From: Escherichia coli | GTDB taxonomy: Bacteria > Pseudomonadota > Gammaproteobacteria > Enterobacterales > Enterobacteriaceae | NCBI RefSeq assembly: GCF_029227855.1 | Contig: NZ_CP074356.1 | Direction: 5' to 3' (one strand) | DNA length: 64,000 nucleotides | Shown: in pieces, positions 25,956 to 53,513 of the stretch | Layout: every line of letters starts with the position of its first letter | Numbering within the stretch: the first letter of the stretch is position 1 | Made by a program: the position numbers and the translations under genes | The notes under the pieces: generated by a model | Told to the model about the DNA's origin: nothing | Database searches by the model: none | What the model saw: only the letters and a program-made list of their open reading frames with translations

Positions 25956-26157
25956 TTAATTCGTAAAACGTGCTACCGATCACATTAAGAAATCAGCGCT
26001 TATTTTTTCGCTCCCGGGCATTACGCAATGAGCAGCGAACTCAGGCATACATCAAGCATAGAGAGGGAATGCAGTTTGCAGCAATCCCTCTTTGCAGACC
26101 TTTAATCCGCTGACCATAGGCGCTAACATAGCGCCTCATTTTTTTGCGGGTGATGAT

Positions 26158-27105
26158 ATGCGTGTGTTACTGGCACCGATGGAGGGTGTACTCGACTCTC
26201 TGGTGCGTGAATTGCTGACCGAAGTTAACGACTACGATCTGTGCATCACCGAGTTTGTCCGCGTGGTGGATCAACTGCTGCCGGTAAAAGTCTTTCATCG
26301 CATTTGCCCTGAGCTACAAAACGCCAGCCGGACACCATCCGGTACGCTGGTGCGCGTGCAGTTGTTAGGTCAGTTCCCACAATGGCTGGCAGAGAATGCC
26401 GCCCGTGCGGTCGAGTTAGGTTCCTGGGGCGTGGATCTCAATTGCGGCTGCCCGTCGAAAACGGTTAACGGTAGCGGCGGTGGGGCGACGTTACTCAAAG
26501 ATCCTGAACTCATCTATCAGGGTGCAAAAGCGATGCGTGAAGCTGTACCGGCGCATTTGCCCGTCAGCGTGAAAGTGCGTCTGGGCTGGGACAGCGGTGA
26601 GAAGAAATTTGAAATCGCCGATGCGGTGCAACAGGCTGGCGCTACGGAGCTGGTAGTACATGGGCGGACAAAAGAGCAGGGTTACCGCGCGGAGCATATT
26701 GACTGGCAGGCGATTGGCGAGATTCGCCAGCGGCTGAATATTCCGGTGATTGCCAACGGTGAAATTTGGGACTGGCAGAGCGCGCAACAATGCATGGCGA
26801 TCAGCGGCTGTGACGCAGTGATGATTGGTCGCGGGGCGCTCAATATTCCCAACCTGAGCCGGGTGGTAAAATATAACGAACCGCGAATGCCGTGGCCGGA
26901 GGTGGTTGCTTTGCTGCAAAAATATACCCGTCTGGAAAAGCAGGGCGATACCGGGTTATATCACGTAGCGCGGATTAAACAGTGGTTGAGTTATTTGCGT
27001 AAAGAATACGATGAAGCAACGGAATTATTTCAGCATGTTCGGGTGTTGAATAATTCCCATGATATTGCAAGGGCTATTCAGGCAATTGATATCGAGAAAC
27101 TCTAA
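26158..27105 (+). CDS. dusC: tRNA-dihydrouridine synthase C
   Basis: ORF 26092..27105 trimmed to [11 protein letters not shown].. (Dus family TIM barrel). Confidence 0.9.
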
Positions 27106-27257
27106 GAAACCATAGTGATGTTTTTTGACAATGTGTTAGCTCTTTATCAATAGGCCGCACGGTTGTTTGGTGGCGTCAAAATCGCCGAGGCGTTCCCTGA
27201 AGGCCGGGGCAGCCCACATGGATGTGGGCTGAGGGCGCGTTTTACAGGGATAATGAG

Positions 27258-27268
27258 ATGGACGCTCC
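27258..27268. repeat. Left subterminal inverted repeat of IS element
   Basis: atggacgctcc; reverse complement recurs at 28623..28633 and, imperfectly, over the transposase RBS at 27326..27335. Confidence 0.5.
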
Positions 27269-27336
27269 AGATTTTACGGTATCAAAGTACCAGACTGGAT
27301 CGTTGCAATACGTCCTGAAAAATTAGGAGCGTCCAC

Positions 27337-28362
27337 ATGAAAGTATCAACTCTTGGTATCGACTTGGCAAAGAACGTTTTTCAGCTTCATGGTGTCGATC
27401 ATGAAGGCCATACTATTTTGCGTAAAAAGCTCACCCGGGCTAAGTTTGTTCAGTTTGTGATTCAACTGGAACCTTGTCTGATTGGCATGGAAGCCTGCTC
27501 ATCCAGTCATTATTTTGCGCGATTATTCACCCGCTATGGTCATGAGGTAAAACTCATACCTCCGCAGTATGTGAAGCCTTATGTGAAAACGAACAAGACG
27601 GATGCAGCAGATGCTGAAGCAATCTGCGAAGCGGTAACCCGTCCGAATATGCGTTTTGTTCAGATAAAAACCGAAGAGCAGCAGGCCGTTTTAGCGTTAC
27701 ACACTGAACGGGGAATACTTATCCGTGAGCGGATTGCCTGTGCCAATAGTTTAAGAGCCACACTTGCTGAGTTTGGTATTACGATTGCGGCCGGACAAAA
27801 CCATTTAACCCGTGAGCTGCCAGCCATTCTGGAGGATGGCGAAAATGGTTTATCTCCCTTTGTCAGAACCAGCATCTACAGACAGTCTAAACATATCCGG
27901 GAACTTGAAGAACAAGTTAAACAGGTAGAAGAAGCTCTGGCCTCCTGGTATAGAACGCAGGAAGCCTGCCAGAGAATGGCCAAGATCCCGGGGGTTGGCA
28001 TGCTAACGGCCACTTATGTGGTAGCAGCAGTGGGTAATGCCCGACAATTCAGTACCGCAAAGCAGTTCGCTTCATGGCTGGGGCTGACACCAAAGGAACA
28101 TTCCAGCGGCGGGAAACAGCAACTGGGAGGGATCAGCAAACGTGGAGATGGATATTTCCGATACCTGCTGGTTCACGGCGCACGCGCACTTACCGCCTGG
28201 GTCAACCGAAACGGCGCGGTTGAGGAGAATTCCTGGCTTCAGGGACTCCTTGAGCGGAAGCACTACAATGTAGCTGTTGTCGCCATGGCGGCAAAAACAG
28301 CGAGGATCATGTGGTCAATATTGTCACACAATACTGAATATCAACCTCGGCAGCTCGCCTGA
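27337..28362 (+). CDS. IS110-family transposase/recombinase (DEDD RuvC-like N-domain plus C-terminal Ser domain)
   Basis: 341 aa; N-terminal GIDLAK, GMEACSS, DAADAEAI and C-terminal SSGG...GGISKRGD motifs typical of IS110/IS1111 transposases; resembles IS4321/IS5075 more than IS621. Confidence 0.9.
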   Translation: MKVSTLGIDLAKNVFQLHGVDHEGHTILRKKLTRAKFVQFVIQLEPCLIGMEACSSSHYFARLFTRYGHEVKLIPPQYVKPYVKTNKTDAADAEAICEAVTRPNMRFVQIKTEEQQAVLALHTERGILIRERIACANSLRATLAEFGITIAAGQNHLTRELPAILEDGENGLSPFVRTSIYRQSKHIRELEEQVKQVEEALASWYRTQEACQRMAKIPGVGMLTATYVVAAVGNARQFSTAKQFASWLGLTPKEHSSGGKQQLGGISKRGDGYFRYLLVHGARALTAWVNRNGAVEENSWLQGLLERKHYNVAVVAMAAKTARIMWSILSHNTEYQPRQLA

Positions 28363-28640
28363 CACAAGGTCAGTCAATCTGACGAGGTGCTGAAAAAAAG
28401 TTAACGTCCTGGTAGGTGCAAGTGACTTCAGAAGATGGCAAAACAGGTAAGACCGCAGGCAGGATACACCGAGAGGTAACAAGGGCAAGTTAGCCCGTAG
28501 AGGATGATTGGTACCTGCCTGGCGGATTTCATCATGGTTCGGGATAAAAATCCCATCAGAAACCGGATATATGGCTGCACCTACCCGTTTTATTACATAA
28601 CTGAAGAAAGCATTGCATTCCGGGAGCGTCCATATATGTT
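28363..28640 (+). ncRNA. Candidate IS-encoded guide (bridge/seek) RNA in right-end non-coding region
   Basis: IS1111-group elements encode their guide RNA downstream of the transposase; region has no ORF and several short stems (gtcagtcaatctgac); extent is guessed. Confidence 0.3.
28623..28633. repeat. Right subterminal inverted repeat of IS element
   Basis: ggagcgtccat, reverse complement of 27258..27268. Confidence 0.5.
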
Positions 28641-28863
28641 ACCTCGCGCCCGACCCGGTAGCCGTAAGGGATAAGCCGAGGGCACCGCGCAGCGGCGATT
28701 TTGTTCGCCAGAGCCCGGGGGGGCAGGGGGCGGCGGCGATTGGTCGCCCCCTGCGCGCTCCCTGCGCCAGTGATTATATGAAGCAATGCACATGACAGGA
28801 GCGCAACAGGATGAGAGACTGAAATATTCTCGTTATTTTCGGATCTGATGACATTAATTAATT

Positions 28864-28947
28864 TTAAAATATCATCTTAAATACGCCAGTCACCACCAGT
28901 AGCCCAATCAGGAAAATAATCAATACAGCCCAGAGTATAATTTTCAT
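28864..28947 (-). CDS. yohP: Small membrane protein YohP (27 aa)
   Basis: Minus-strand ORF MKIILWAVLIIFLIGLLVVTGVFKMIF, below the 60-aa cut-off of the ORF track. Confidence 0.7.
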   Translation of the reverse strand: MKIILWAVLIIFLIGLLVVTGVFKMIF

Positions 28948-29170
28948 TGGCGTTCCTTTATTTGTGAGTGCTGAATAAGTATAGGAAAAAACGAAGCCCT
29001 TTGCCGCTATCCATAAACGATTAAGATAAATCGGAAGATATCATTCACTTAGTGTATATTTTTCTGGATATGTCGTTTTATTGCCACTGATGTATTGCCA
29101 CGCGAAACTAAAAAATATATCGCAACACACGGTAATCTCCGCGCACCTTTTCTTACCTGATTATTCCCCC

Positions 29171-30607
29171 ATGAATCGTGATTTTTTTTATCCAGCCATC
29201 GCCTGTTTTCCGCTGTTACTGATGCTGACCGGGTGTGCGCCTATGCATGAAACCCGCCAGGCGTTAAGCCAGCAAACGCCCGCTGCACAAGTTGACACCG
29301 CATTACCCACGGCGCTGAAAAATGGTTGGCCAGACAGCCAATGGTGGCTGGAGTATCACGATAATCAACTCACTTCCTTAATTAATAACGCACTACAGAG
29401 CGCACCGGATATGCAGGTGGCTGAACAGCGCATTCAGCTGGCTGAAGCCCAGGCGAAGGCAATTGCCACTCAGGATGGTCCGCAGATCGACTTTTCTGCG
29501 GATATGGAGCGGCAAAAAATGTCTGCAGAAGGGTTAATGGGGCCGTTTGCTCTGAACGATCCTGCCGCAGGTACGACCGGTCCGTGGTACACCAACGGTA
29601 CTTTTGGCTTAACGGCGGGCTGGCATCTCGATATCTGGGGAAAGAATCGGGCGGAGGTTACTGCTCGCCTGGGTACGGTTAAAGCACGGGCGGCGGAACG
29701 CGAGCAAACCCGCCAATTGCTGGCTGGCAGCGTAGCCCGTCTGTACTGGGAGTGGCAAACCCAGGCGGCGTTAAACACTGTCTTACAGCAAATCGAAAAA
29801 GAGCAGAACACCATTATCGCCACCGATCGCCAGCTATATCAGAACGGGATTACTTCTTCAGTTGAAGGTGTGGAAACCGATATTAATGCCAGCAAAACCC
29901 GGCAGCAGCTCAACGATGTCGCGGGGAAAATGAAAATTATTGAGGCACGGTTAAATGCACTCACAAATCACCAGACAAAGGCATTGAAGCTTAATCCGGT
30001 CGCGTTGCCGAAAGTGGCAAGTCAGCTTCCTGATGAACTGGGGTACTCCTTACTGGCCCGGCGGGCAGATTTGCAGGCGGCGCACTGGTACGTTGAGTCA
30101 TCGTTAAGCACTATTGATGCGGCAAAAGCGGCATTTTATCCTGACATCAACCTGATGGCCTTCCTGCAACAGGATGCGTTGCACTTAAGCGATCTGTTCC
30201 GTCATTCCGCGCAGCAAATGGGCGTTACGGCAGGCCTGACGCTACCCATTTTCGATAGTGGTCGTCTTAACGCCAACCTCGATATCGCAAAAGCCGAAAG
30301 CAACTTGTCTATCGCCAGCTACAACAAAGCGGTGGTTGAAGCGGTGAATGACGTGGCGCGGGCAGCCAGTCAGGTTCAGACACTGGCGGAGAAAAACCAG
30401 CATCAGGCGCAAATTGAGCGCGATGCCTTGCGTGTAGTAGGTCTTGCGCAGGCGCGCTTTAACGCGGGCATCATTGCGGGTTCCCGCGTCAGCGAAGCCA
30501 GAATCCCCGCGCTGCGTGAGCGGGCCAATGGCCTGTTATTGCAAGGGCAGTGGCTGGATGCCTCCATTCAACTCACTGGTGCGTTGGGCGGGGGTTACAA
30601 ACGCTGA
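29171..30607 (+). CDS. mdtQ: Outer membrane efflux lipoprotein (OMF / NodT family) MdtQ, apparently intact
   Basis: ORF 29081..30607 trimmed to MNRDFFYP..; lipobox LTGC; two OEP-type repeats. Confidence 0.75.
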   Translation: MNRDFFYPAIACFPLLLMLTGCAPMHETRQALSQQTPAAQVDTALPTALKNGWPDSQWWLEYHDNQLTSLINNALQSAPDMQVAEQRIQLAEAQAKAIATQDGPQIDFSADMERQKMSAEGLMGPFALNDPAAGTTGPWYTNGTFGLTAGWHLDIWGKNRAEVTARLGTVKARAAEREQTRQLLAGSVARLYWEWQTQAALNTVLQQIEKEQNTIIATDRQLYQNGITSSVEGVETDINASKTRQQLNDVAGKMKIIEARLNALTNHQTKALKLNPVALPKVASQLPDELGYSLLARRADLQAAHWYVESSLSTIDAAKAAFYPDINLMAFLQQDALHLSDLFRHSAQQMGVTAGLTLPIFDSGRLNANLDIAKAESNLSIASYNKAVVEAVNDVARAASQVQTLAEKNQHQAQIERDALRVVGLAQARFNAGIIAGSRVSEARIPALRERANGLLLQGQWLDASIQLTGALGGGYKR

Positions 30608-32886: not shown

Positions 32887-33059
32887 AAAGTTCTTTTGTG
32901 TTGCATTGCTGGCGTAAATGTCAGCAATGCAGCATTTCCTCACGATTCTCCTTTGACGATCGCACTTTTTGCTCGTTATGATGGCGTCGCTAGCCTCAGT
33001 AAATCCTTACTCCGGCGGTGCGCAACCCGTGCGCGTGAACCACTATCTGAATGCTCATC

Positions 33060-53319: not shown

Positions 53320-53431
53320 ATATTCATCCCTGAAATGTATTAATGAAATAAACGATATTTTACGCGCAATAAATGTTTGGCGCATTAGTTGTTTGAGCGA
53401 AAAATATCTGGAAAGCAGATCACAGTAAATA

Positions 53432-53466
53432 AAAAAACCTGCTGGTGAGGCAGGTTCTTTTATTTA
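53432..53466. terminator. Bidirectional rho-independent terminator
   Basis: aaaaaaa-cctgc-tggtgag-gcagg-ttctttt; A-run and T-run flank the stem, so it works in both orientations. Confidence 0.6.
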
Positions 53467-53513
53467 CTATTTTCAGGCCCAACACCGCAGCCTGTGCAAC
53501 ATCGTGTTCCAAC
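53432..53513 (-). ncRNA. Candidate antisense antitoxin sRNA (OrzO-like)
   Basis: Minus-strand -35 TTGCAA (53548..53543) and -10 TATAAT (53525..53520) put the start near 53513; first 18 nt are complementary to 53662..53679 in the toxin 5' UTR at 17/18; ends at terminator 53432..53466 (about 81 nt). Confidence 0.4.

What the first reader, a model, noticed from the sequence alone, without database searches (positions are those of the whole stretch)
28363..28640. Right-end non-coding region may encode the element's guide (bridge/seek) RNA
IS1111-group elements place their guide RNA downstream of the transposase. Here about 270 bp between the transposase stop and the right inverted repeat has no ORF and contains short stems (for example gtcagtcaatctgac). 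If an RNA is made here, its loops should carry sequences complementary to the element ends and to the insertion target.
Basis: inference. Interest (0 to 1): 0.55.

Follow-up and report, generated by a model that had tools for sequence, protein, structure and literature searches.

The report
ISEc81 bridge (seek) RNA gene
The non-coding stretch after the transposase gene of this E. coli insertion sequence (ISEc81) does encode the roughly 190-nt guide RNA that tells the transposase where to insert, but this kind of RNA is already described and was already predicted for this element.

Summary

**The element.** It is a 1386-bp IS1111-group copy, window 27251-28636. Its transposase is 337/341 aa identical to ISfinder ISEc81. 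It sits in the loop of a hairpin in an E. coli intergenic repeat; the empty site reads ...ACAGGGA|TGTTACCTCGCG....

**The RNA.** A conserved structured RNA lies at 28403-28593 on the + strand.
- In 13 relatives, 18 of 43 pairs show compensatory changes.
- In 69 sequences the covariation score is 0.474, against 0.168 when shuffled (0/500 shuffles reach it).
- A covariance model built here finds the RNA directly 3' of the transposase gene, same strand, in 65 of 70 relatives of 45-54% identity.

**The guides.** Unpaired segments match the target and the element ends in the reversed order reported for IS1111.
- GAGAGGUAACA pairs with the right flank.
- GUAGAGGAUG equals the left flank.
- AUUUCAUCA pairs with the left end.
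- AUAUAUG equals the right end.

Each guide type follows its own DNA across the family (0/20000 and 0/5000 permutations).

**What is missing or already known.** Rfam has no matching family. Transcription, processing and activity are untested. Durrant 2024 already lists ISEc81 with a right-end bridge RNA, so this is a correct but already known feature.

The parts
27251..28636 (+). Complete ISEc81 copy, 1386 bp. Boundaries follow the IS1111 convention of a 7-nt left and a 3-nt right extension outside the subterminal repeats. The shared 'AT' lets the boundary slide by 1-2 nt.
   Evidence: Empty site L002 compared with occupied sites. The transposase is 337/341 aa identical to ISfinder ISEc81.
27240..27250 (+). 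Left half of the target (TTTTACAGGGA). It lies in the loop of the hairpin GGGCGCG (27233-27239) / CGCGCCC (28645-28651) of a roughly 280-bp intergenic repeat.
   Evidence: Empty-site comparison. The repeat is present in 5425 of 5426 E. coli genomes, median 3 copies.
27251..27268 (+). Left end: the 7-nt extension TAATGAG plus the left subterminal inverted repeat ATGGACGCTCC (27258-27268).
   Evidence: I6. The repeat is conserved in relatives.
27337..28362 (+). Transposase gene, 341 aa, with DEDD/RuvC-like and Transposase_20 domains.
   Evidence: Pfam PF01548 and PF02371; NCBIfam NF033542 'IS110 family RNA-guided transposase', 357.6 bits against a cut-off of 140.
28363..28402 (+). Poorly conserved spacer.
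   Evidence: Alignment of 13 relatives. The covariance-model hit starts at 28403.
28403..28593 (+). Bridge/seek RNA gene (covariance-model boundaries). The conserved core from closing stem to closing stem is 28411-28585.
28411..28420 (+). 5' strand of the closing stem; pairs with 28576-28585 (GGTAGGTGCA / TGCACCTACC).
   Evidence: I17. Helix 1 is 90.6% paired, and 5 of its 6 pairs show changes on both sides.
28453..28463 (+). 5' strand of the target-binding arm stem; pairs with 28514-28525. A 3-bp inner helix, 28468-28470 / 28510-28512, follows.
   Evidence: Helices 6 and 7 are 93.6% and 99.0% paired, and all 11 pairs show compensatory changes.
28471..28481 (+). Right-target guide (top-strand match), GAGAGGUAACA. 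It pairs with the top strand TGTTACCTC(G)C at 28637-28647: 9 contiguous pairs, then one mismatch and one more pair.
   Evidence: I8.
28483..28496 (+). Capping hairpin of the target-binding loop (GGGC AAGUUA GCCC).
   Evidence: Helix 8 is 98.5% paired, and all 4 pairs covary.
28497..28506 (+). Left-target guide (bottom-strand match), GUAGAGGAUG. It has the same sequence as top-strand (C)AG-GGA|TG: 5 contiguous nt, or 7 if one RNA base bulges out. It overlaps the other target guide on the dinucleotide TG.
28526..28534 (+). Right-donor guide, AUUUCAUCA. It pairs with the top strand of the left end TAATGAGAT (27251-27259): 7 Watson-Crick pairs, one G.U and one C.A.
   Evidence: it follows the left end across the family (TAATGGAAT with AUUCCAUCA; TGATGGGG with CCCAUCA). 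Helices 4 and 5, which would sequester it, are poorly supported.
28535..28565 (+). Hairpin between the two donor guides.
   Evidence: Helices 9 and 10 covary.
28567..28574 (+). Left-donor guide, AUAUAUGG, in the multiloop. It has the same sequence as top-strand right end ATATA|TG, so it would pair with the bottom strand.
   Evidence: The table shows a one-to-one match with the 3-nt right extension across the family (CTA, GTA, GCA, AGA, ACA, AAA).
28613..28618 (+). Probable -35 box TTGCAT. In a circular intermediate it lies 16 nt upstream of a TATAAT formed by the right end (TA) plus the left end (TAAT).
   Evidence: Read from the joined ends. TTG is conserved at this distance in relatives. Such a junction promoter was shown for ISEc11 (PMC11187229). 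It is inferred here.
28623..28636 (+). Right subterminal inverted repeat GGAGCGTCCAT plus the 3-nt extension ATA.
28637..28648 (+). Right half of the target (TGTTACCTCGCG).

Best explanation
Window 28403-28593 (+) is the gene for the bridge RNA (seekRNA) of an ISEc81 copy.

**Architecture (shown).**
- A closing stem (28411-20/28576-85) encloses a multiloop.
- One arm of the multiloop is the target-binding loop. It is a long stem, a 3-bp inner helix, a large internal loop and a capping hairpin.
- The 5' strand of that loop (GAGAGGUAACA) pairs with the top strand of the right flank, TGTTACCTC.
- The 3' strand (GUAGAGGAUG) has the sequence of the left flank plus TG, so it pairs with the bottom strand.
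- Both strands cover the dinucleotide TG, which acts as the core.
- Outside that arm, AUUUCAUCA pairs with the top strand of the left end, TAATGAGAT.
- After a second hairpin, AUAUAUG has the sequence of the right end ATATA|TG and so pairs with its bottom strand.
- The order is therefore right-target, left-target, right-donor, left-donor. This is the reverse of IS621, as reported for IS1111 elements.

**Mechanism (inferred by homology with ISEc11 and IS621).**
- The element excises as a circle. Joining its ends creates the promoter TTGCAT-16 nt-TATAAT.
- That promoter transcribes the transposase gene and the RNA as one message, and the RNA is then trimmed.
- The DEDD/serine transposase, loaded with the RNA, aligns the circle junction with the site ACAGGGA|TGTTACCTC. 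That site is in the loop of a hairpin in an E. coli intergenic repeat.
- The strands are exchanged there, without a target-site duplication.
For: **Element and site.** Four other ISEc81 sites and an empty site define the ends and one constant target.

**Structure.**
- In 13 relatives with 59-88% identical transposases, 18 of 43 predicted pairs keep pairing through changes on both sides.
- In 69 sequences, 86.5% of cells are paired against 69% in shuffles, and the covariation score is 0.474 against 0.168 (0/500 shuffles reach it). Structures slid by 1-3 columns score 0.025-0.063.

**Position and strand.** The model has a single hit in the window. Hits lie just downstream of the transposase gene, always on its strand, in 65 of 70 distant relatives. 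Many G.U pairs are kept, and these would be mismatches on the other strand.

**Target guides** (52 distinct guide sets).
- Mean contiguous match to the element's own right flank is 6.75 nt, against 3.03 nt to other elements' flanks.
- For the left flank the values are 5.54 and 2.93 nt.
- No permutation of 20000 reaches either observed value.
- In the window the own match is 9 nt, and the best match to any foreign flank is 4 nt.

**Natural retargeting.**
- ISEch3 copies encoding one identical transposase carry guide UUCGCCGCG next to flank CGCGGCGAA, or UUCGCGGCG next to flank CGCCGCGAA.
- In L096 both the left flank (ACTAT in place of AGGGA) and its guide are changed.

**Donor guides.**
- The left-donor segment mirrors the 3-nt right extension across the family.
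- The right-donor segment follows the left end.
- Both give 0/5000 permutations, while the opposite strand sense for the right-donor segment fails (4896/5000).

**Protein.** Pfam PF01548 and PF02371; NCBIfam 'IS110 family RNA-guided transposase'.

**Literature.**
- RNAs from the downstream non-coding region co-purify with four IS1111-group transposases. For ISEc11 the region is required for circle formation and transposition, and it can be reprogrammed; the top-strand match lies 5' of the bottom-strand match (PMC11187229).
- IS1111 bridge RNAs lie in the right end, with donor nucleotides in a multiloop, and ISEc81 is listed as 'RE' (PMC11208160 and its supplementary table).
Against: - There is no expression or activity data for ISEc81. 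The 5' and 3' ends of the RNA are model boundaries, not mapped ends.
- No promoter-like site on the + strand was found inside the integrated element, so transcription has to be inferred (junction promoter, or read-through from dusC).
- The left-target match is short in the window: 5 contiguous nt, equal to the best match to a foreign flank. It needs a bulge to reach 7.
- Both donor guides encode G at the second core position, whereas the element has A (TAATG). This leaves a systematic C.A mismatch that I cannot explain with certainty.
- The right end ATATAT is self-complementary, so in this clade alone the strand sense of the left-donor guide is ambiguous. It is settled only by distant relatives.
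- The alignments used for the family-wide pair counts were fitted to the model's structure, which favours that structure.
- L010 and L030 appear to have enough sequence downstream of the gene yet gave no hit.
Confidence: 0.92

Rival explanations
1. The region is conserved only as DNA: it holds binding sites for the transposase or host factors at the right end, and no functional RNA is made.
For: It lies next to the right inverted repeat. No internal + strand promoter was found. Folding z-scores are similar on both strands.
Against: Conservation follows base pairing rather than sequence: 34 of 43 pairs change on both sides while 86.5% of cells stay paired. G.U pairs give a strand asymmetry that duplex DNA would not have. 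The variable loop strands track the flanking DNA, which a protein-binding site has no reason to do.
Confidence: 0.03
2. It is a structured 3' untranslated region of the transposase mRNA (a stability or termination element) with no guiding role.
For: It has the same strand as the gene and lies directly downstream of it. It is probably co-transcribed.
Against: There is no terminator-like site here. Four unpaired segments covary with the two flanks and the two ends across the family, which a stability element would not do. Homologous regions in ISEc11, ISPa11 and ISKpn4 yield transposase-bound RNAs, and in ISEc11 the RNA determines the target (PMC11187229).
Confidence: 0.03
3. The region encodes a small protein. 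Gene callers placed antisense ORFs of 74-156 aa over it in some relatives.
For: ORFs of 50-56 aa overlap the region in the window. Called minus-strand genes without Pfam hits overlap it in L086, L092, L093 and L098-L100.
Against: No frame is open throughout in all relatives. L087, L090, L096 and L102 have at most 42-44 stop-free codons in any frame across the roughly 190 nt. The open frames also differ between elements. Indels in the alignment are not multiples of three.
Confidence: 0.01

Closest known systems
seekRNA / bridge RNA of IS1111-group elements, shown experimentally for ISEc11, ISPa11, ISKpn4 and ISPst6 (Siddiquee et al. 2024, PMC11187229)
   Same: - It is encoded in the long non-coding region downstream of the transposase gene, inside subterminal inverted repeats with 7-nt and 3-nt extensions.
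- A stem-loop with an internal loop carries the top-strand match 5' of the bottom-strand match, and the two matches overlap in the target.
- There is no target duplication.
- The ends can form a junction promoter.
- The target-binding arm here (28453-28525, 73 nt) is close in size to the 82-nt short seekRNA, and the whole RNA is close to the 154-nt long form.
   Different: - The ISEc81 transposase is about 43% identical to the ISEc11-family transposase found on plasmids.
- The target differs: ACAGGGA|TGTTACCTC here, GTGAAAATACTG for ISEc11.
- Nothing has been tested experimentally for ISEc81.
IS621 bridge RNA (IS110 group; Durrant et al. 2024, PMC11208160; Hiraizumi et al. 2024, PMC11208158)
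   Same: - It is a bispecific RNA with two guides for the target and two for the donor.
- The left guides pair with the bottom strand and the right guides with the top strand.
- Both guides of a pair cover a core dinucleotide.
- The enzyme is a DEDD plus serine recombinase.
   Different: - The RNA is in the right end rather than the left end.
- The guide order is reversed (right before left).
- The donor guides sit in a multiloop that also carries the target arm, not in a separate internal loop.
- The subterminal repeats are long (11 nt).
- The donor core is TA while the guides encode TG.
ISYen1 (IS1667) of Yersinia enterocolitica and ISEch3 of Dickeya dadantii, the nearest named relatives
   Same: - The transposases are 68% and 65% identical.
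- The subterminal repeat ATGGACGCTCC is the same.
- The RNA architecture and donor guides are the same.
- The left half-site is (A/T)GGGA.
   Different: - The right-target guides differ, and so do the right half-sites: GGCGCGGCTC for ISYen1 and CGCGGCGAA for ISEch3.
- The host repeat that is targeted differs.
Ssr9 small RNA of ISPpu9, Pseudomonas putida (PMC12288879)
   Same: It is a small RNA gene downstream of the transposase gene of an IS110-family element that inserts into repetitive palindromic sequences.
   Different: Extra ssr9 copies exist outside the element. I took only the abstract from that paper and did not compare sequences.

Membership tests
IS1111-group insertion sequence (ISEc81) | DEDD (RuvC-like) N-terminal domain, Transposase_20 C-terminal domain, and the GL-P----S(T)G motif | tested here: met
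   Pfam PF01548 (E = 1e-14) and PF02371 (E = 4e-24). NCBIfam NF033542, 357.6 bits against a cut-off of 140. The motif GLTPKEHSSG is read directly from the translation. The protein is 337/341 aa identical to ISEc81.
IS1111-group insertion sequence (ISEc81) | Subterminal inverted repeats with short terminal extensions; the long non-coding region lies downstream of the gene; no target-site duplication | tested here: met
   A perfect 11-nt repeat lies 7 nt from the left end and 3 nt from the right end. There are 274 nt downstream of the gene and 86 nt upstream. Empty and occupied sites differ only by the element.
IS1111-type bridge RNA / seekRNA | A conserved RNA secondary structure in the downstream non-coding region, on the transposase strand | tested here: met
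   covariation; model hits in 65 of 70 distant relatives, all on the gene's strand and just 3' of the gene.
IS1111-type bridge RNA / seekRNA | An internal loop whose 5' strand is complementary to the top strand of the target and whose 3' strand is complementary to the bottom strand, with the two matches overlapping | tested here: met
   In the window the matches are 9 nt (plus one more pair after a mismatch) and 5 nt (7 with a bulge), overlapping on TG. Family-wide comparison of own flank against other flanks: 0/20000 permutations for each.
IS1111-type bridge RNA / seekRNA | Nucleotides that match the element ends (donor), located in a multiloop | tested here: met
   AUUUCAUCA pairs with the left end and AUAUAUG equals the right end. 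Both follow the ends across the family (0/5000 permutations). Position in the multiloop.
IS1111-type bridge RNA / seekRNA | The RNA is transcribed, processed, bound by the transposase and required for circle formation and transposition | not testable with these tools
   No expression data are available. No internal promoter was found. This was shown only for ISEc11 and other family members (PMC11187229).
Rfam-curated RNA family | A match to an existing covariance model | tested here: not met
   No Rfam 15 model matches 28363-28637 at the gathering threshold or at E <= 10. The class appears not to be represented in that library.

The most novel reading that the evidence does not exclude
In ISEc81 and all relatives whose left end begins TAATG, the donor guides, like the target guides, specify the core dinucleotide TG. 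The element itself carries TA. The right-donor guide therefore always meets a C.A mismatch. The left-donor guide fits the integrated right junction (ATATA|TG, 7 nt) better than the circle junction (ATATA|TA, 6 nt). Relatives whose left end begins TGATG match their guides fully.

Two readings remain open. In the first, the mismatch is the price of a consensus TATAAT -10 box at the circle junction. In the second, IS1111-group guides are tuned to the integrated or post-exchange junctions. That would fit the reported need for target flanks during excision, and it would be a real mechanistic difference from IS621.
Probability: 0.25. Interest if true: 0.45.

Novelty: already known. Interest (0 to 1): 0.22.

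Why it matters
For annotation, this explains a 274-bp 'non-coding' tail and gives exact coordinates for the RNA, its four guide segments and the target of ISEc81. As far as I could find, none of the three papers that mention ISEc81 by name describes these.

It also yields a covariance model that recovers the RNA in distant IS1111-group elements. Rfam has no such family, so the RNA is currently invisible to standard RNA annotation.

The natural retargeting cases (ISEch3 variants, L096, and L086 with guide GACAGGCAACA) could serve as ready-made test pairs for reprogramming.

None of this changes current understanding. It confirms published work on this family.

Tried and rejected
- **Rfam.** Searches at the gathering threshold and at E <= 10 found nothing in the region. 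Weak hits nearby (AgvB, sX13, mir-611) are far below their thresholds and were treated as chance.
- **Single-sequence folding.** The z-scores (-3.3 on +, -3.2 on -) could not choose the strand.
- **Collection scan.** It returned only relatives of 45-54% identity and none of the 60-90% enterobacterial ones. Those were fetched one at a time instead.
- **Left-donor guide sense.** I first read AUAUAUGG as complementary to the top strand of the right end (I4). Distant relatives show it has the same sequence as the top strand (CTA goes with AUCUAUG, and so on), so it pairs with the bottom strand.
- **Lower stem.** RNAalifold pairs GGUAAGA (28446-52) with the right-donor guide. These pairs are poorly supported across the family: helix 4 has no double changes and helix 5 is 69.6% paired. 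I treat that pairing as doubtful.
- **Small ORF.** A conserved small ORF on either strand was rejected.
- **Internal promoter.** None was found on the + strand.
- **Other target sites.** No second copy of the target site exists in the window.

Full report
**What is there.** The window is E. coli chromosome, with gene order yohK-yohJ-dusC, then the element, then yohP-mdtQ. The 341-aa ORF at 27337-28362 has the DEDD_Tnp_IS110 and Transposase_20 domains. It matches NCBIfam 'IS110 family RNA-guided transposase'. It is 337/341 aa identical to the ISfinder ISEc81 transposase as printed in the supplement of Siddiquee et al..

A genome without the element reads ...GCGTTTTACAGGGATGTTACCTCGCGCC... at this place. 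The occupied site reads ...CAGGGA|TAATGAG-ATGGACGCTCC ... GGAGCGTCCAT-ATA|TGTTACC.... The element is therefore 1386 bp, 27251-28636. The boundary can slide by 1-2 nt because 'AT' is shared. It has perfect 11-nt subterminal repeats placed 7 and 3 nt from the ends and makes no target duplication. These are the IS1111-group hallmarks described in PMC11187229.

Copies next to lysO, yegH and ybaP/copA in other strains have the same flanks. The target lies in the loop of a hairpin (GGGCGCG...CGCGCCC) inside a roughly 280-bp intergenic repeat. That repeat is found in 5425 of 5426 complete E. coli genomes, with a median of three copies. The element itself is in 179 of 5426 genomes.

**Checking the observation.** The distances and the cited stem are real. 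However, that stem (28369-28383) sits in the least conserved 40 nt of the region and outside the conserved RNA. Mechanical ORFs of 50-56 aa overlap the region, but none is conserved. The single-sequence fold is only mildly better than shuffles and equally so on both strands. It proves little on its own.

**A conserved structured RNA.** I collected the homologous region from elements with 59-88% identical transposases, from Serratia, Pectobacterium, Pantoea, Yersinia (ISYen1), Dickeya (ISEch3), Citrobacter, Jejubacter and others.
- The first roughly 40 nt after the stop codon vary freely. A block of about 190 nt then aligns well.
- RNAalifold predicts 43 pairs, and 18 of them keep pairing through changes on both sides.
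- A covariance model built from this alignment gives one hit in the whole 64-kb window, at 28403-28593 on the + strand (194 bits).
- It gives hits in 65 of 70 relatives of only 45-54% identity, mostly full-length. All are on the transposase strand and start a few tens to about 200 nt after its stop codon.
- Three of the five misses are loci cut off too close to the gene. L010 and L030 appear to have enough downstream sequence.
- On the 69-sequence alignment, 86.5% of cells pair against 69% in shuffles. The covariation score is 0.474 against 0.168 (0/500 shuffles reach it). Structures slid by 1-3 columns score 0.025-0.063.
- That alignment was fitted to the model, which favours the structure. 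The 13-sequence MAFFT alignment shows the same helices independently.
- Well-supported helices in window coordinates: closing stem 28411-20/28576-85; target-arm stem 28453-63/28514-25; inner 3-bp helix 28468-70/28510-12; cap 28483-86/28493-96; second hairpin 28535-39/28561-65 with 28542-44/28551-53.
- The predicted pairing of 28446-52 with 28527-33 is not supported across the family (helices 4 and 5).
- Rfam 15 has nothing that matches here.

**Target guides.** The large internal loop of the arm carries GAGAGGUAACA (28471-81) on its 5' strand. This is complementary to the top strand of the right flank TGTTACCTC(G)C (28637-47): 9 contiguous pairs, then a mismatch and one more pair (I8).

Its 3' strand carries GUAGAGGAUG (28497-506). 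This repeats the top-strand left flank plus core, (C)AG-GGA|TG, and would therefore pair with the bottom strand. The contiguous match is 5 nt, or 7 with one bulged base. The two matches overlap on TG.

I took the two loop strands from every model hit and defined the flanks from the subterminal repeats. That gave 52 distinct guide sets with both flanks.
- The 5' strand has a mean contiguous complementarity of 6.75 nt to its own right flank, against 3.03 nt to the flanks of other elements.
- The 3' strand has a mean identity run of 5.54 nt with its own left flank, against 2.93 nt.
- No permutation of 20000 reaches either value.
- Three ISEch3 copies in one Dickeya genome encode the same transposase protein. 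Two carry UUCGCCGCG next to flank CGCGGCGAA and the third carries UUCGCGGCG next to CGCCGCGAA.
- In L096 the left half-site is ACTAT instead of AGGGA, and the guide reads ACUUAUUG instead of AGAGGAUG.

**Donor guides.** Just 3' of the target arm, AUUUCAUCA (28526-34) is complementary to the top strand of the left end TAATGAGAT, with 7 Watson-Crick pairs, one G.U and one C.A. After the second hairpin, in the multiloop, AUAUAUG(G) (28567-74) repeats the top strand of the right end ATATA|TG.

In this clade both RNA and ends are invariant, and ATATAT is self-complementary. The distant relatives therefore decide the matter.
- The right extension CTA goes with AUCUAUG, GTA with AUGUAUG, GCA with AUGCAUG, AGA with AUAGAUG, and ACA/AAA with ACACAUG/ACAAAUG.
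- Left ends TAATGGAAT, TGATGGGG and CAATGGGAT go with AUUCCAUCA, CCCAUCA and AUCCCAU.
- Permutation tests give 0/5000 for both. The opposite sense for the left-end guide fails (4896/5000).

The order along the RNA is right-target, left-target, right-donor, left-donor. The strand rules are those of IS621 (left guides on the bottom strand, right guides on the top strand; PMC11208158), but the order is reversed. Siddiquee et al. report this for IS1111 elements. The donor nucleotides lie in a multiloop, as Durrant et al. note for IS1111 orthologues.

**How it most likely works.**
- Shown here: the structure, the four complementarities and their covariation, the site and the ends.
- Inferred from ISEc11 and IS621: excision to a circle. 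Joining the ends gives TTGCAT (28613-18), 16 nt, then TATAAT (28635-36 plus 27251-54).
- No + strand promoter was found inside the integrated copy. The RNA is therefore probably made as the tail of the transposase transcript and then trimmed, as proposed for ISEc11.
- The RNA-loaded DEDD/serine enzyme would then pair circle junction and target and exchange strands at GGGA|TG.

**One unexplained detail.** All guides encode TG at the core, but the element's left end starts TA. The right-donor guide therefore always has a C.A mismatch at left-end position 2. Clades whose left end starts TGATG match fully. The A is what makes the junction -10 box a perfect TATAAT. Whether that is the reason is speculation.

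**Rivals.**
- A pure DNA-binding region, or a plain mRNA 3' structure, does not explain loop strands that follow the flanks.
- A small ORF is excluded by the lack of any conserved frame.

**Comparison and novelty.** This is a member of the IS1111-type bridge/seek RNA class, and all sequence-level criteria are met. The functional criteria (expression, binding, requirement) cannot be tested here.
- The class was described in 2024 (PMC11187229, PMC11208160).
- PGAP already names the protein 'RNA-guided transposase'.
- Durrant et al.'s supplementary table lists 'ISEc81 / RE / IS1111', meaning a bridge RNA predicted in the right end.
- The three papers that mention ISEc81 by name are resistance-genomics surveys.
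- The finding is therefore correct but already known. What this analysis adds is the exact anatomy for ISEc81, its target, and a working covariance model.

**Verdict.** Novelty: already known. Interest: low (0.22).

Noticed in passing
L003/L105 (NC_010498.1 908000-914000) and L104 (NC_010498.1 2312159-2316829); compare window 26092-30607: In E. coli SMS-3-5 the gene order is lysO-ISEc81-yohP-mdtQ at 0.91 Mb and yohJ-dusC-ISEc81-aqpZ-ybjD at 2.31 Mb. In the window, as in K-12, dusC is next to yohP-mdtQ. From memory, K-12 also has lysO next to aqpZ; I did not check this. This suggests that the roughly 1.4 Mb between two inverted ISEc81 copies is inverted, roughly symmetrically about the terminus. 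Many genomes (H10-H25) stop matching at the same point of the right flank, so they may share the arrangement.
   Followed up: partly
window 27319-27336, with 27259-27275: A third copy of the subterminal repeat (GGAGCGTCCA, 27326-27335) lies directly before the transposase start codon and overlaps its Shine-Dalgarno sequence AGGAG. It can pair over 17 nt (88%) with the left repeat region (I1). It could occlude the ribosome-binding site or act as an extra transposase-binding site.
   Followed up: no
window 27140-27250 and 28637-28790: The insertion target lies in a roughly 280-bp intergenic repeat with dyad symmetry (for example CAAAATCGCCG at 27177 and CGGCGATTTTG at 28693). The repeat is present in 5425 of 5426 E. 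coli genomes, median 3 copies. The MG1655 RefSeq record annotates nothing in the yohP-dusC spacer. I could not name the repeat family.
   Followed up: partly
L098, L099, L100 (Dickeya dadantii CP002038.1): Three ISEch3 copies encode an identical transposase but two guide variants, each matching its own variant of the target. L100 also has C instead of T at the first base of the left end, the same base as in its right flank. This suggests that this position lies within the crossover region.
   Followed up: partly
L086 1157-1350: A relative with an 88% identical transposase, from a short metagenome contig, carries the right-target guide GACAGGCAACA instead of GAGAGGUAACA. This predicts a shifted target TGTTGCCTGTC. 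Its flank is not on the contig.
   Followed up: no
L080 2594-2789 and 2974-3175; L023 583-779: One Nitrospinota contig has two tandem copies of the bridge-RNA-like structure after a single transposase gene. Both carry guides for the same flank (TGTCCCCG). L023 has an extra copy upstream of the gene. These could be partial duplications of right ends or remnants of neighbouring elements.
   Followed up: partly
window 27251-27252, 28526-28534, 28567-28574: All guide segments specify TG at the core, but the element's left end begins TA. This produces a constant C.A mismatch in every relative whose left end begins TAATG. Relatives with TGATG match fully. The A completes a consensus TATAAT at the circle junction.
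   Followed up: partly
window 53431-53506 (-) and 32975-33055 (+): There are two Rfam matches above the gathering score elsewhere in the window: the OrzO-P antitoxin RNA (101 bits) and the Peptidase-S11 RNA motif (72.8 bits).
   Followed up: no
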